From Phallusia mammillata (lineage: Eukaryota), in the NCBI GenBank assembly GCA_965637545.1, contig OZ281494.1, positions 15,686,001-15,750,000 on the forward strand: a stretch of DNA of 64,000 nt. The letters are read 5' to 3'. Made by a program: the position numbers. Every line of letters begins with the position of its first letter. The stretch's first letter is position 1. This document shows, one piece after another, positions 9,001 through 18,000 of the stretch.

Positions 9001-12000
9001 CACCCTAAAATGGCATAATAAAGAAACTGTCCAAATTTCATCCGAATCGGACATTGTTTAAAAAAATCACCCATTTTAGGGGTCTACTGGGGTAAATATT
9101 GGGGGTAAAGGGTAACACACAATAATCGATGCCCTAACATGGCACAATGAACAAACTGTCCAAATTTCATCCAAATCGGACATTGTTTAAAAAATCACCC
9201 ATTTTAGGGGTCTACTGGGGTAAATATTGGGGCTACAGTGTAAAACACAACAAACGATGCCCTAAAATGGCACAATGAACAAACTGTCCAAATTTCATCC
9301 AATTCGGACATTGTTCAAAATTTACCCATTTTAGGGGGCTAGTGGGGTAAACACTGGGGCTATCGAGTCAAACAAAACAAATGGCACATCTACATAACCA
9401 TATCTACCATCTGTGAAAATTTCATCCAAATCCATCAAACATTTCAAGGCAAAACGAGGTGGACAAACTTTGGGCAGAAGAAAAAAAAAGAAAAAACAAA
9501 CAAACAAATCGAGTAAAATCAATATGTGTCCCCTTCAGGGAAGGGGACCCATAAAAAATTGAACACAGTTTGCATTACTGAAGTTTCAAAATACTAAAAA
9601 AATACAGCTAAGCTGATTGACACTATGAAGATGCCCCAAATGAGAATTATGCCAGGCAACAATATATACTGATTGACACCAGTTTATTAATTTTAGATTT
9701 CAAGTTGGAAATATTCAACACAGTATTACACAAAAACTAAACCAAATTGCTTACATTGGTCAGTTAAAAAGATATACATCCAAATTTTGCTTGTTTCTGT
9801 ATTATGTTTCAATTGTCCAGATTAATTCCAGCACCCCCAGTTGCCCATTTCACATTCTGCACCCATTCTTTATTTTTTAAGGCCCCCACTTTGAGAACCA
9901 CTGTTCTATATCATACTTACTCCAAATATAGGGGATTAAACCATTCAAACATGGAGTGGTATAACCCAAACTTGATTGAAGTTTTGCTTCTGATTGCAGT
10001 TGCAAGTTCTCCAACTAAATCGCGGTGAGGTCCAACATCCATTGAGTTCCAGTTCCATGAAACCTCAGATGGCCAATTTGTAAAGCCCTCATGATGCTTG
10101 CTGGTTAACACTACATACTTAGCACCAGACTCTACCGAAAAGACAAAAACATTAGTACTTATTGTGAATTAAAGTTTTTTATGAAAGGACAGATACAAAA
10201 TACCAGAAAATATGTGCTAAATTGTAAACAAAAAATTGATAAACACACTACATGAGAATCCAAGACCAACAAACAGGCATACGGTTCCCACAAAAAAAAC
10301 AGGTGTTAAAACATCAATTGTTTGAAGTGTATACATTTTAAAAATATTACCTTTAAATAGTTCGGCCCAGTCATCAGGATGGTAAAACTCAGTTGTAAAA
10401 TCTTTTGCAAAATCAGCATAAGTAAAGCCTGGTGGATAGTTTTGTTCCATGAATTTGACCACATCAGGATGTGGAGAGTTGCCCTAAAAAATTGCAATGT
10501 TTTTTAGCTACAGCAAGATTAGAAAAAAAATGTTTGGTATGCCAGACATCTGCATTTTTTATTTTCTTAAATAAATTTTTAGCTAGACTTTTAAAAATAC
10601 CAGAGTCAAAGTCACTTTTTTGTCTTGCTTTTCAATCAGTCTACTTTAAACATCTTTTTTTAGGTTTTTTAACATTTATTTCTACTTTCATGTTTTCACA
10701 CCTTTTACCCGACTTTGTAACCCTGGTTTAATAACTTCTGCTGTGAAATATCTTACATGCATACGTTTTGAAAACATCATACCTGCCAGTAATTCCAAAA
10801 CCACTCACTAACATAACTTGGAACTGAAAAGACACCCCAGTGAATGAAAATTCCAAATTTTGCCTCATCATACCAACTTGGAAGAGGTCTGCTGTCAATT
10901 GATGCCCAGTTTGGTTCATACTTTGTTTCTTTTGTGTCTTTTATTTCAATGTCAATTTCTTTTTTAACAGTGATCACTTCACTGTTGGATTCTTCCATGT
11001 CAACTTGAAGTTCCCGCATAACAAACTCCGAATCTGCATTTATTCCATTTGCCAATAAAGTAATGGCAATTAGACAAATATTTATAACACTCGTGGAAAC
11101 CATTGCATTACAGATCTAGTTCCTGTTTAAAAATGATATGTGGTCAATATCAAAGCACATTACTACACAATCGCATGACGATTGTTGAAATGAACGTGTT
11201 AAAATTTACCTCCCAAAAGATCGGACAACTTTGTTTGCACTTTGCAGTGTTGTTTTCATTCCGCTTCATTGGACTTCTGTCTTCACGTCTGATTGCACAT
11301 CGTATCAAAACTCATGCGTCATATCATATGGTGGTTGGCAAAAAACATAAATACAATTGAGTGTGATGTTAGATTAGGGTTGCCATATTTTATGATACAC
11401 AATCCCTGACAAAATTTATCTCAGTTGCGTTAACCCAGTGGTTCTCAAACTTTTTCGTTATTTTCTCTAAACCAGTGGTTCTTAACCGGTGGGAAATTTC
11501 CCACCAGTGGGAAATTTAACGTATTCAGAGGGAAATTATGTAAGTCAGGAGTAACGAAACTCGGTCCAGTGGGTCGAATCCGGCTTCGAATTGACCGTTT
11601 AATGTTAATTTACTGCATTTTTAGCAACAACATTAGATAAATTTCACCTGGTTTTACAAAACACATAAAAAATCAAATTATACAATCCAAAAAAACCGTT
11701 TGTTACATCACAGACATGTCTGAAAGCATTAATGCCTTTGTTATTGTGCGCGAATAAATGTCTTTCTATGTTGATTGTGATGCAATAATTGAGTTTTGCA
11801 AGCAGAAAGGATTCAACTTTTCACATATTTTTACTCTTTCACTGAAGCACTATTCAAACTAAATAGGATTGTACCAAGCTTTTAAGATCCCAACCAAATC
11901 GCTTTACAAAATTATTTCAATCAAAGAAATCAAAGTTAATGTAGAACACAAAACTCATCATAAAAATAACAGAGTGGGAAATTCGAACTTGGTGATCGAC

Positions 12001-15000: not shown

Positions 15001-18000
15001 CCCGCCCCGCCACCGCCCACTCGGCGCCTTTGCGCGTAACCCTCCTTTTGCATGGTAAGCACGCATTATTAAGCAGTGACGTCATAAACTTTTTTGAGCA
15101 CTATTTTGGTACAGGGACACTGTGATGAAATCATGTTTTAAACAACTTAAATTCAAGTTTCGGACAATTTTGATATTATCTGCAAATGGTAACGATTCAA
15201 AAATGACCGTTTAATCCACATTTAATATGCGTACCAGTACGGTGGTACGGTACGCTTTTAGTACGGTGGTACGCTCTAGTAAAGGACCGTACCACGTACC
15301 GTACCCGTACCTCAGCTTTCTTTGCGTACCGTACCTACGTACCGTACTTTTTGATGAAATTTGCTGCGTACCGTACCGTACCATTGTACCGTACCGTACT
15401 GCCATCCTTGCTGACATGTCAGGGAAAATCCTGACGTATGGCAACCCTATGTTAGATAGTAGACTAACTTAGAATCAAAGCGCCCAGGGCAGGCGTGGGA
15501 AGCATTTTACTTTAAATTAAGTCGCTGGTGCCAATCATAGCATACGACAAATTCGCATAGTCGACTGTAGGCCTCAACTACGCAATCTATTCGATCTACG
15601 CAAACCATACCTAGCAATTCATGGAACTTACATTAATAAAATGCTCACCCAATGCAAGTCTATAAGGCTCTAAGCAGTTGAAATATGTTCCAGGCTACAA
15701 TTTTGGAGTTGCCTTCGCGTTTATTTGCATCTCGTCATTCTTTAGTTTGTGAACTTTACAAACACTCTTATAACCTTCAGTTTAAACCCTTAATTTTGTC
15801 CAGTCATTAGCCCACTAGCTTATGCTTTAGCACAGTGGCTTGTCCAACTCCAAGTAGGCTAAACTCAACTCAAAGTATATGTAGAAAACTTGGATTCTGC
15901 TCCAAAATTTTTGTAGTGGGGACTGGGGACAAAAAATTCTGCTCCAAACCAATTAATGCAAAATACCATAAAAGATCACGTTGGTTTGCAGCTCATTTAT
16001 TTTCTTGCGGGGTTTCAACCCTGGACGCTCCCGGGAAGAATTATATTTTATATGAGGTGAAGCGTGGTGCAACTTCTTTTCCCTAGCGGATGCGTGACTA
16101 AAATATATTATTCGCTTTGTGTCAGTAAAGAGCGACATCCTACACTTTCGCTGTCCCAGAACTTATGCGTATCGCAAAACCCCTGCGGCTGCAGATGCAA
16201 AAATATAAGCTTAGCTTAAAATCAAAAAATACACGACGATAAAGTGTAGGCTAGGCTAATGAAACCAACGAGGAACATTCTGTGGTTTTTCCTAAACATT
16301 AAAGTCGTCAATCATGTTTATATTAACAGTTTGAGAGAAATTCATTGTGCTTTGTATAATCACCTCAGATTCCGCTAGTAAAAAATAAAACACAACAAGC
16401 TCAAAAAATCAATTAAGTCTTTTGAGCACGTGCCCGAAATGCCAGCTTAACAGCCTATGCGGACCGCCGTGGATGGTTGAAAAATACGCGTTTCAAGTGC
16501 AGGTCGCATTAAAAGCATTGAAATGTCAGCATGTGCCCAAGCGGCGTTGTTGACACAGCAGTCGTTCCATTCTCACCTCGTGCCAGCGAATAGCAACTTG
16601 ACTAATAATGGCCGGTTTCACCTGAGCCTCAACAATGCGTGAGTTTTACTGGTCAGTTTAATTCACTCCGGGTCTGCATTAAGGTTTACCGGCGTTGTGG
16701 TCAACAGTTGGTCAAACACGCAGTTTGGGACGAATCGTCGCATATGCGAACTTCAAAGTTAGCAGTGGTCTTTGGCGTTTGTATTGAAACGCATATAACG
16801 GCAACGCAACACATTAAAATTCGCTTTTTTGCCACAATTTTTGAATGAAAACGGTAACAAGCCTTTGTGTTTGTAAAATGCAGCGTTTAAAAACATTATT
16901 ATGGCGCAAATCTGTGCAAATTATTATTAACGCTAGGCTGTGCAAATCAAAAACAGTTTTGTGAATGAGTTTTACAGTGGTCTAACCTTATTTTGTTGCG
17001 ACGCAATCACTCGAGATCCCAAGAAGCAAACAACTCTTGACCCTAATGTTTTATCGTCGACTAAACTGCTCTTGACTCGCCGCTGCTATTTGCTCAGCTA
17101 AAATTCCCAGGAACGGACCAACTTGGTTTGAAAATTGGGTGACGGATTATCGATACCGTTTGATGCGCTTTGTTTCTGTTTTATACGAAACATGTTTTGG
17201 GTGTTTTTTTATAAGTGAAAACTACGCGTACACATTAATTTACGATACATGCTATATGATTGAAATTCCGCAAAACGATACAAACTAACATCTGGGTTAA
17301 AAACATTACAACTTTTCGACAGCGTATTTATAGAACCGTAAATTGTGTACCTAACTTTATTGAGAGATAAAGTTCCATCTTAGTTTTTCCTTATTGCGCT
17401 TAGAACCTAAAATATTTGATCTTTAAAATGTAGGCTAGCAAATTTCCCGTTCCATAATCGTTCAAAGTATACTAGTAATGCAACAAACATTTTAGCAACT
17501 TTTATGAAACCAGACCTGGACGGAAACAAGTTTCGATGACAAAGAACGACGGAAACAAACCAGTGCCGTGCCATTGACGTATACGTGCTTTCAACGTGTT
17601 GTGTATTTAGCTTGGTAGGTTGATTTTCTGCAGAGGCCAGACAATAGTGACGATCCAGGTGCCACAGTTGCTGTCAACCTGCTACGGAAATACAAAAAAA
17701 TGTTGCATTGCTTGTTCCTTTTGTTTGTCGCTTCCGATACAGTGTATACATCAAAAACTTTCAATAAAAACTACAGGGGAAGTTTGTTTGGCCAGCTTTA
17801 GATGGTGGATTGTGGGAACTCCACCTGCACTTGTAGCCTACTGTCCTCATTTTATTGTTGCTTCTGCAGTGAATTGCACGATCTTTGTAGATATATCTGA
17901 CACAGTCCTTTTGTACCTTTTTCAAGGAACCCTTCAAAGTTTTTGTCAATTGTTGCAGAAAATAGTAATTCAAAAATATGGTAGAATATAGATAACTAAA

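What the first reader, a model, noticed from the sequence alone, without database searches (positions are those of the whole stretch)
11375..15449. Four-level Russian-doll stack of hAT elements in the fucosidase promoter region
A 1.26-kb family A element has received three direct insertions (11473-12039, 13002-13583, 13739-15410). The third holds a fourth (14162-15032), which holds a fifth (14431-14748). Each has its own TIRs and 8-bp TSD, and the empty sites are visible in copy 1. The host differs from copy 1 by only ~2% in the stretch compared, so the pile-up was fast or arrived partly pre-assembled. It begins 272 bp upstream of the fucosidase ATG, at the edge of the FoxA domain. Inference: a hAT insertion hotspot, or elements that attract further hAT transposases through their subterminal motifs.
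Basis: seen in the sequence. Interest (0 to 1): 0.65.

Follow-up and report, generated by a model that had tools for sequence, protein, structure and literature searches.

The report
Nested transposon stack beside fucosidase gene
Six small non-coding jumping-gene relics sit one inside another just upstream of a sea-squirt fucosidase gene; the structure is real, but it is an ordinary kind of transposon nest and shows no clear sign of a special targeting mechanism.

Summary
A 1,230-bp family A element (11375-15449) carries three direct insertions; the third holds a fourth, which holds a fifth. All six have terminal inverted repeats and 8-bp target-site duplications (3 perfect, 3 at 7/8). Copy 1 of family A (2481-3738) shows all three empty sites and differs from the host by 2.12%. 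The window is from the ascidian Phallusia mammillata. The nest starts 272 bp upstream of the minus-strand fucosidase ATG and ends 6.3 kb upstream of FoxA.

All elements are non-coding. Family A, ins1, ins2 and ins5 fit Buster-type hAT elements (central TA in the duplication). ins3 and ins4 could be hAT or P-like.

The clustering exceeds the window background (P about 5e-4, or 0.02 after correction). A uniform model still predicts about ten such hosts per genome.

The idea that resident elements attract transposases is not supported. Each insert has its own private subterminal motif, absent from the host, and the two other A copies carry no insertions. Nothing here is a new kind of thing. The genome-wide census could not be run.

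The parts
11375..15449 (+). Family A copy 3, the outermost host. Its own sequence is 1,230 bp in four pieces: 11375-11472, 12048-13001, 13592-13738 and 15419-15449, plus one duplicated TSD copy at each insertion. TIR TAGGGTTGCCATA.
11367..11374 (.). Left target-site duplication of the host (TGTTAGAT). The right copy is at 15450-15457.
11436..12391 (.). Probable older inner element that belongs to family A itself. TIR CAGTGGTTCTCAAACT (14/16), flanks CGTTAACC/GGTTCACC (6/8). It is present in all three A copies and is interrupted in copy 3 by ins1.
   Evidence: (pair I4)
11473..12039 (.). ins1, 567 bp, level 2 (level 3 if the inner element is counted). TSD CTCTAAAC 8/8. Private subterminal motif GTGGGAAA (5 of 5 window hits).
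13002..13583 (.). ins2, 582 bp, level 2. TSD GTATAGAG/GTGTAGAG. Private motif GTGTGCCGC (4 of 4 window hits).
13739..15410 (.). ins3, 1,672 bp with its contents (793 bp of its own), level 2. 25-bp perfect TIR. TSD CTGGCATG/CTGACATG. GTACGGTAC arrays at both ends (15 of 15 window hits).
14162..15032 (.). ins4, 871 bp with ins5 (545 bp of its own), level 3. TSD CGTGTAAC/CGCGTAAC. Holds 3 of the window's 4 TGACGTCA palindromes.
14431..14748 (.). ins5, 318 bp, level 4, innermost. TSD GTCTAAAC 8/8. TIR CAGGGGTGGGCA(A/C)CC.
2481..3738 (+). Family A copy 1, 1,258 bp. TSD AACTATAT 8/8. No insertions; it shows the three empty sites.
3876..5043 (-). Family A copy 2, 1,168 bp. TSD CTCTAACC 8/8 in its own orientation. 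13% diverged from copies 1 and 3. Tail to tail with copy 1, 137 bp away. No insertions.
10780..11103 (-). First coding exon of alpha-L-fucosidase. The ATG at 11103 is the first Met after an in-frame stop. Further exons run down to 6819.
21775..23508 (+). FoxA (Fkh) single open reading frame, 6,325 bp beyond the nest.

Best explanation
**What it is.** A genuine transposon nest built by successive cut-and-paste insertions of six different non-autonomous TIR elements in Phallusia mammillata.

**Order of events.** Family A landed 272 bp upstream of the fucosidase start codon. ins1, ins2 and ins3 then landed in it, ins4 landed in ins3, and ins5 landed in ins4. Each integration left the 8-bp staggered-cut duplication typical of hAT transposases supplied in trans from elsewhere in the genome.

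**Why it piled up (inferred).** Two ordinary biases probably act together.
- Buster-type hAT transposases favour promoter-proximal, accessible DNA.
- An insertion into an already dead element, in the spacer between a housekeeping promoter and the FoxA regulatory region, costs the host nothing. It therefore survives, and each arrival enlarges the harmless target.

No element-specific attraction is needed.

**Shown:** the anatomy, the empty sites, the order of nesting and the lack of coding capacity.

**Inferred:** superfamily assignment from TSD and TIR alone, and the cause of the clustering.
For: - Exact TIR and TSD at all six boundaries, far above chance: 0.02 chance hits expected in the nest span, 6 seen.
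- Empty sites for 3 of 3 direct insertions in copy 1, and for 2 of 3 in copy 2.
- No coding capacity. 0 of 15 nest ORFs of 66 aa or more hit Pfam. Of 142 window ORFs of 75 aa or more, 9 hit Pfam and none was a transposase family. No Rfam family and no tRNA.
- Central TA in 6 of 8 duplications (A three times, ins1, ins2, ins5) against a TA frequency of 0.072, P = 3e-6. This matches the Buster-family consensus nnnTAnnn (passages of PMC3517528, and PMC3499496).
- TcBuster prefers transcription start sites and DNase-sensitive DNA (passages of PMC3499496).
- The nest lies in CpG-undepleted DNA (observed/expected 1.22), directly beside the CpG-depleted fucosidase gene body (0.26).
- No intact TIR/TSD element was found from 15450 to 37433, the 22 kb that holds FoxA. 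9 of the 12 candidates lie between 1.5 and 15.5 kb.
- Nested insertions in DNA transposons are common in other genomes (abstract and passages of PMC3903597).
Against: - The local excess is real on the window's own numbers. 7 intact elements in 59.9 kb outside the nest gives 0.117 per kb, P(3 or more in 1.26 kb) = 4.7e-4, or 0.024 after correcting for 51 bins. The full four-level structure is expected only 0.13 times per genome under a uniform model. Pure neutrality without some bias is therefore strained.
- Copies 1 and 2 are equally 'dead' DNA in CpG-undepleted sequence and carry no insertion. A safe-haven effect alone does not explain why only copy 3 was hit.
- Chromatin accessibility at the site was not seen. 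The published ATAC-seq positions are in supplements that were closed.
- ins1 to ins5 have no second copy in the window. Their status as repeat families, and their superfamily, rest on ends and duplications alone.
- Three of the five nested duplications carry a mismatch (3 of 40 positions). That is slightly more than a 2.1% host divergence predicts (P = 0.05; P = 0.24 if doubled).
Confidence: 0.55

Rival explanations
1. Sequence-directed attraction or homing. The ends or subterminal motifs of the resident element recruit transposases of related elements, so new elements land in or next to old ones.
For: - ins1 (TIR CAGTGGTTCTTAACC) landed 37 bp inside the 5' end of the older inner element, whose TIR is 13/15 identical.
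- All three direct insertions lie within 186 bp of an end of the 1,230-bp host (98, 186 and 39 bp). P = 0.028, post hoc.
- ins3 landed inside a 16-bp palindrome in the host's 3' subterminal region (read).
Against: - The repeated subterminal motif of each insert is private to it. GTACGGTAC: 15 of 15 window hits in ins3. GTGGGAAA: 5 of 5 in ins1. GTGTGCCGC: 4 of 4 in ins2. None occurs in the host.
- Copy 1 has the identical three target octamers and copy 2 has two near-identical ones, yet both carry no insertion. A 3:0 split has P = 0.125 with two equal copies and 0.037 with three.
- ins4 and ins5 landed in the middle of their hosts, not near the ends.
Confidence: 0.08
2. Partly pre-assembled arrival. 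ins3 already carried ins4 and ins5, or family A already carried some inserts, when it transposed to this site. Fewer events would then have happened here than the nest suggests.
For: - Family A itself seems to be such a composite. A TIR-bounded inner element is present in all three copies, so it was carried along in at least three transpositions.
- There is a precedent: 107 rice MULE copies carry the same nested MITE at the same site (passage of PMC3903597).
- The TSD mismatch rate of the nested elements (3 of 40) is, if anything, higher than the host's 2.1% divergence predicts. That would fit inserts older than the host's arrival.
Against: - For ins1, ins2 and ins3, the empty sites in the 2%-diverged copy 1 show that the insertions came after the split of the two copies.
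- No second copy of ins3, ins4 or ins5 exists in the window to compare.
- The difference in TSD mismatches is not significant.
Confidence: 0.2
3. Chance alone. Insertion is uniform over the genome, and the reader picked an extreme of a Poisson process.
For: With the window's density extrapolated to the 187 Mb mappable genome quoted in 10.1101/371005 (passage), about 21,900 intact elements are expected, and about 10 hosts with three or more direct inserts.
Against: - The same model expects only 0.13 structures with the added third and fourth levels.
- Elements in the window are visibly clumped: 9 of 12 lie in 14 kb.
Confidence: 0.15
4. Assembly artefact or chimera of haplotypes.
For: None found. 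Long reads could not be inspected.
Against: Each of the ten inner junctions is bounded by matching 8-bp duplications and matching inverted ends. The host reads straight through when the insertions are removed, 97.9% identical to copy 1. Mis-joins do not create target-site duplications.
Confidence: 0.03

Closest known systems
Buster/Charlie-type non-autonomous hAT elements (for example the Mar MITEs of Drosophila, PMC3517528; TcBuster, PMC3499496)
   Same: 8-bp duplications with central TA in family A (3 of 3 copies), ins1, ins2 and ins5. Short TIRs of 13-15 nt that start CAG or TAG. No coding capacity. Sizes 318-1,258 bp.
   Different: No autonomous partner or transposase was seen. Copy numbers are unknown. 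None of the six TIR strings is printed in any transposon paper of the library; the only 2 hits were unrelated. The likeness of these TIRs to mammalian MER5/Charlie ends is recalled from memory, not tested.
P elements and P-MITEs (Anopheles, PMC1562414)
   Same: 8-bp duplications and TIRs of 27-31 bp (passages). ins3 has a 25-bp perfect TIR and an 8-bp duplication without central TA. ins4 also lacks central TA.
   Different: No THAP transposase or P-like subterminal sequence could be compared. The ends of ins3 and ins4 also fit hAT.
Nested transposon insertions in plant DNA transposons (maize and rice MULEs, PMC3903597)
   Same: Elements sit inside elements, each with its own duplication. There are multiple insertions per host, and composites that keep transposing.
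   Different: Here all layers are small non-autonomous TIR elements with 8-bp duplications, in a compact ascidian genome, and the depth is four. In maize most inserts are LTR retrotransposons.

Membership tests
hAT superfamily (non-autonomous members) | 8-bp target-site duplication | tested here: met
   6 of 6 elements (3 at 8/8, 3 at 7/8), plus family A copies 1 and 2 at 8/8. Definition from passages of PMC3942097. The feature is not exclusive: P elements share it.
hAT superfamily (non-autonomous members) | Short TIRs (10-25 bp) whose first bases fit C/T-A-purine-N-G. The terminal consensus is recalled, not from a call. | tested here: met
   TIR lengths are 13-25 nt. Both ends fit in the host, ins1, ins2, ins3 and ins5. 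ins4 fits at one end (CAAAG) and not at the other (CATAG). TIR length range from PMC3942097.
hAT superfamily (non-autonomous members) | An autonomous partner with the same ends that encodes a hAT transposase (BED finger, DDE core, hAT dimerisation domain) | not testable with these tools
   None in the window: 0 transposase families among 142 ORFs of 75 aa or more. No eukaryotic genome collection was available.
Buster family of hAT | Target consensus nnnTAnnn | tested here: met
   Met for A (3 of 3 copies), ins1, ins2 and ins5. Not met for ins3 (AC) or ins4 (GT). 6 of 8, P = 3e-6. Consensus.
P superfamily (considered for ins3 and ins4) | 8-bp duplication, TIR of about 27-31 bp, THAP-domain transposase partner | tested here: inconclusive
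   The duplication is met. The ins3 TIR is 25 bp and the ins4 TIR about 14 bp. A partner is not testable. Features from PMC1562414.
MITE (miniature inverted-repeat element) | Small, non-coding, TIR plus TSD, and present in many copies | tested here: inconclusive
   Size, non-coding nature and ends are met. Copy number: family A has 3 copies in the window, while ins1 to ins5 have 0 further copies in 64 kb. Genome-wide copy number is not testable. At 1.2 kb, family A is large for a MITE.
Transposon nest (nested insertions) | Each inner element is bounded by its own duplication inside the outer one, and the outer one is continuous once the inner is removed | tested here: met
Insertion hotspot | Insertion rate per kb significantly above matched background, from independent events | tested here: inconclusive
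   Window-only test: P = 4.7e-4, or 0.024 corrected. About 10 such hosts are expected per genome under uniformity. No genome-wide or population data.

The most novel reading that the evidence does not exclude
Resident hAT ends act as landing pads. A transposase that recognises a related terminal repeat is tethered there and integrates its cargo nearby. This would be a eukaryotic cut-and-paste counterpart of the end-targeting seen in some bacterial insertion sequences.

The hints are that ins1 sits 37 bp inside a 13/15-identical terminal repeat, and that all three direct insertions lie within 186 bp of the host's ends.
Probability: 0.07. Interest if true: 0.6.

Novelty: new member of a known kind. 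Interest (0 to 1): 0.25.

Why it matters
The nest gives a clean, fully resolved record of five ordered insertion events, with an internal empty-site control. It sits beside one of the best-studied developmental genes of ascidians.

If it is polymorphic in populations, it would be a convenient marker of recent hAT activity in Phallusia. It would also be a natural experiment on how 2.8 kb of added DNA between a housekeeping promoter and the FoxA upstream region is tolerated.

As a phenomenon it adds nothing new. Nested DNA-transposon insertions and promoter-proximal hAT landing are both established.

Tried and rejected
- **Other copies of ins1 to ins5 in the window:** none (BLAST of 11 pieces). 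A search with 15-nt ends at 3 or fewer mismatches found only a lone ins5-like end at 39311-39325 and a lone inner-element-like end at 9889-9903.
- **Coding capacity or a transposase:** none.
- **RNA genes:** none.
- **Dropped scan hits:** of the 25 scan hits, 11 were dropped as by-products of the inverted pair formed by copies 1 and 2 (2995 to 3710). Two more (53168-58289 and 54067-56626) were dropped because their ends do not start C/T-A. With 1.85 chance hits expected, they may be chance or other inverted repeats.
- **CpG depletion as a discriminator:** tried as a way to tell copy 3's position from that of copies 1 and 2. Both lie in undepleted DNA, so it does not discriminate.
- **Long hairpin structure as a reason for mid-point insertions:** the left and right halves of ins3 and ins4 share only the TIR and short motifs, so this was dropped.
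- **Literature:**
  - No paper on Phallusia transposons among the 8 listed of 10 that hold both terms.
  - A search for ascidian, MITE and hAT was swamped by 'hatching'.
  - 'Russian doll' with hAT and MITE gave only an annotation strategy, not a nest.
  - The TIR strings are not printed in any transposon paper.
- **Positions of the tested Phallusia Foxa.a enhancers:** not in the main text of 10.1101/371005. They are in a supplementary table, which was closed.
- **Genome contigs:** holds only bacteria and archaea, so it was not used.
- **Metagenome contigs and viral contigs:** closed, so not used.
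Full report
**Observation**

I read 11200-15800 and tested each claimed boundary by script. All six are exact.

| Element | Coordinates | TSD | TIR |
|---|---|---|---|
| Host (family A copy 3) | 11375-15449 | TGTTAGAT, 8/8 | 13 nt, TAGGGTTGCCATA |
| ins1 | 11473-12039 | CTCTAAAC, 8/8 | 14/15 |
| ins2 | 13002-13583 | 7/8 | 15/15 |
| ins3 | 13739-15410 | 7/8 | 25/25 |
| ins4 | 14162-15032 | 7/8 | 13/14 |
| ins5 | 14431-14748 | GTCTAAAC, 8/8 | 13/14 over the first 14 nt |

- The repeat finder independently lists the inverted pairs of the host, ins1, ins2, ins3 and ins5 among its 25 shown. 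The ins4 pair is not in that list.
- A blind scan of the whole window looked for an 8-bp duplication (1 mismatch or fewer) flanking a 14-nt inverted end (12/14 or better). It returned 25 hits, including all six.
- Forty dinucleotide-preserving shuffles gave 1.85 hits per window, and 0.3 with a C/T-A start. That is 0.02 expected in the nest span.
- The window contains no N.

**Other copies and empty sites**

BLAST of the eleven pieces against the window finds two more family A copies.

- Copy 1 is at 2481-3738 (plus strand, TSD AACTATAT 8/8).
- Copy 2 is at 3876-5043 (minus strand, TSD CTCTAACC 8/8). It lies tail to tail with copy 1, 137 bp away.
- The three-way alignment shows one uninterrupted octamer in copy 1 at each of the three direct insertion points. 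Copy 2 shows the same at the ins2 and ins3 points; its ins1 region is too diverged to align.
- With the insertions removed by coordinates, the host is 1,230 bp. It differs from copy 1 at 26 of 1,226 aligned bases (2.12%, 4 indels). Copy 2 is 13.0% from copy 1 and 13.5% from the host.
- ins1 to ins5 have no other copy in the 64 kb.

**A further, older layer**

All three A copies share an internal pair of inverted ends, CAGTGGTTCTCAAACT, matching 14/16.

- In copy 3 it spans 11436-12391, with flanks CGTTAACC and GGTTCACC (6/8) (pair I4, 35).
- Family A therefore looks like a composite that kept transposing after it received an insert.
- ins1 sits 37 bp inside this inner element.
- I call this layer probable, not proven. 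The flanks are near-palindromic, so they can be read either as a duplication or as an extension of the inverted repeat.

**Context**

- Stop-to-stop frames and Pfam place alpha-L-fucosidase on the minus strand, with exons from 6819 to 11103.
- The first Met after an in-frame stop is at 11103, so the nest begins 272 bp upstream of it.
- FoxA is a single frame at 21775-23508 (plus strand) with Forkhead_N, Forkhead and HNF_C domains.
- Its product is 100% identical to Fkh of Phallusia mammillata. The window is therefore ascidian, not human.
- The nest lies in the 10.7-kb divergent spacer between the two genes, 6,325 bp from the FoxA ATG.
- CpG observed/expected is 0.26 over the fucosidase gene body, but 0.90 to 1.22 in the spacer, the nest and FoxA. 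This is the mosaic pattern known for ascidians (recalled).

**What the elements are**

- None of them codes. 0 of 15 nest frames of 66 aa or more hit Pfam.
- Of 142 window frames of 75 aa or more, 9 hit Pfam: five fucosidase exon frames, FoxA, two frames of a PLP-dependent enzyme, and one Vac_ImportDeg frame. None is a transposase family.
- There is no Rfam family and no tRNA.
- hAT elements are defined by short TIRs and 8-bp duplications. The Ac and Buster groups differ in target choice (passages of PMC3942097).
- The Buster consensus is nnnTAnnn (passages of PMC3517528, and PMC3499496). Six of eight duplications here have central TA: A three times, ins1, ins2 and ins5. The TA frequency is 0.072, so P = 3e-6.
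- ins3 and ins4 do not have central TA. None of the left-hand octamers of the four other window candidates does either, so the overall count is 6 of 12.
- P elements and their MITEs also make 8-bp duplications and have 27-31-bp TIRs (passages of PMC1562414). ins3 (25-bp TIR) and ins4 may therefore be hAT or P-like.
- Each insert has its own repeated subterminal motif, found nowhere else in the window:
  - GTACGGTAC, 15 of 15 hits in the two ends of ins3.
  - GTGGGAAA, 5 of 5 hits in ins1.
  - GTGTGCCGC, 4 of 4 hits in ins2.
- The inserts are therefore different families, probably served by different transposases.

**Is it more than chance, and is it a hotspot?**

- I dropped 11 scan hits created by the inverted pair of copies 1 and 2, and 2 hits whose ends do not start C/T-A. 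That leaves 12 candidates: 1539, copy 1, copy 2, copy 3, ins1 to ins5, 37434, 40934 and 42844.
- Seven of them landed in the 59.9 kb outside the nest, a rate of 0.117 per kb.
- At that rate, three or more hits in a 1.26-kb host has P = 4.7e-4, or 0.024 after allowing for 51 such bins.
- I extrapolated that density to the 187 Mb mappable genome quoted in 10.1101/371005 (passage). A uniform model then expects about 21,900 intact elements, about 10 hosts with three or more direct inserts, and 0.13 structures with the extra two levels.
- The nest is therefore denser than uniform insertion predicts, but not by a margin that demands a special mechanism. One window is a weak basis, and the case was chosen because it stood out.

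*Against attraction by the resident element:*
- The inserts' motifs are absent from the host.
- Copy 1 has the same three octamers and copy 2 has two near-identical ones, yet neither carries an insertion. The split is 3:0, P = 0.125 with two equal copies or 0.037 with three.
- ins4 and ins5 landed at 53% and 49% of their hosts' length, not near the ends.
- TcBuster showed no affinity for hAT fossils in human cells (passage of PMC3499496).

*For attraction:*
- ins1 lies 37 bp inside a related end, 13/15 identical.
- All three direct insertions are within 186 bp of a host end (P = 0.028, post hoc).

*For a position effect:*
- Only the promoter-proximal copy was hit.
- TcBuster favours start sites and DNase-sensitive DNA.
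- 9 of the 12 candidates lie between 1.5 and 15.5 kb, while the 22 kb from 15450 to 37433 that holds FoxA has none.

I therefore favour ordinary serial insertion into accessible, harmless DNA. The harmless target grows with each arrival.

**Timing**

- The 2.12% host divergence bounds the age of copy 3 only loosely.
- The five nested duplications carry 3 mismatches in 40 positions, all transitions. Under 2.1% pair divergence that has P = 0.05; under 4.2% it has P = 0.24.
- The inserts are therefore not clearly younger than the host, and partial pre-assembly cannot be excluded.
- Composites that keep moving are documented. 107 rice MULE copies carry the same nested MITE (PMC3903597), and family A itself seems to be one.

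**Comparison and novelty**

- Nested insertions in DNA transposons are well known.
- I found no paper on Phallusia transposons, and none that prints these terminal repeats in a transposon context. The families may be undescribed, but the kind of structure is not new.

**Not checked**

- Genome-wide copies, long reads and population alleles, because no eukaryotic DNA collection was available.
- The positions of the tested Foxa.a enhancers and ATAC peaks, which are in closed supplements.

Noticed in passing
window 1539-5043: A second, side-by-side cluster lies downstream of the fucosidase gene. It holds a 344-bp TIR/TSD element (1539-1882) and family A copies 1 and 2, which lie tail to tail only 137 bp apart. 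Each has its own perfect 8-bp duplication. Copies 1 and 3 (2% apart) flank the fucosidase gene in direct orientation.
   Followed up: partly
window 6819-11103 versus flanks; also 52000-60000: CpG observed/expected is 0.26 over the fucosidase gene body and 0.23-0.69 over 52-60 kb, which holds the 5' exon of the PLP-enzyme gene and the GID4-like gene. It is about 1 everywhere else, including FoxA and all the transposons. This is a sharp mosaic-methylation signature, and the nest sits exactly at the 5' edge of the depleted block.
   Followed up: partly
window 14209, 14224, 14828 (ins4) and 15077 (ins3): All 4 perfect TGACGTCA palindromes (CRE-like) of the 64-kb window lie inside the nest. ins4 and ins3 share the 13-mer TGACGTCATAAAC. 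They may be transposase-binding or regulatory motifs carried by the elements.
   Followed up: no
window 14162 within ins3; 14431 within ins4: ins4 sits at 53% of the length of ins3's own sequence, and ins5 at 49% of ins4's. Both are almost exactly central (P about 0.004, post hoc). The halves share no long inverted repeat that would explain it.
   Followed up: partly
window 39311-39620 and 37434-37937: The 504-bp element at 37434 has a truncated, 85%-identical second copy at about 39326-39620 (minus strand). It ends next to a lone terminal repeat one mismatch away from that of ins5. This may be another older nested or truncating insertion.
   Followed up: partly
window 9889-9903: A lone terminal-repeat-like 15-mer sits in a fucosidase intron. 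It is one mismatch from the inner element of family A.
   Followed up: no
window 8787-9432: Diverged tandem repeats (70-80% identity, offsets of about 100-360 bp) lie in a fucosidase intron.
   Followed up: no
window 15450-37433: No intact TIR/TSD element was detected in the 22 kb that surrounds FoxA. 9 of the 12 candidates lie in 1.5-15.5 kb. This fits a transposon-poor developmental-gene neighbourhood, but only one class of element was scanned.
   Followed up: no
window 49464-53558 (minus) and 56227-56574 (plus): Exons of a pyridoxal-phosphate-dependent enzyme (PALP) and of a Vac_ImportDeg/GID4-like protein. They were searched as single frames only.
   Followed up: no
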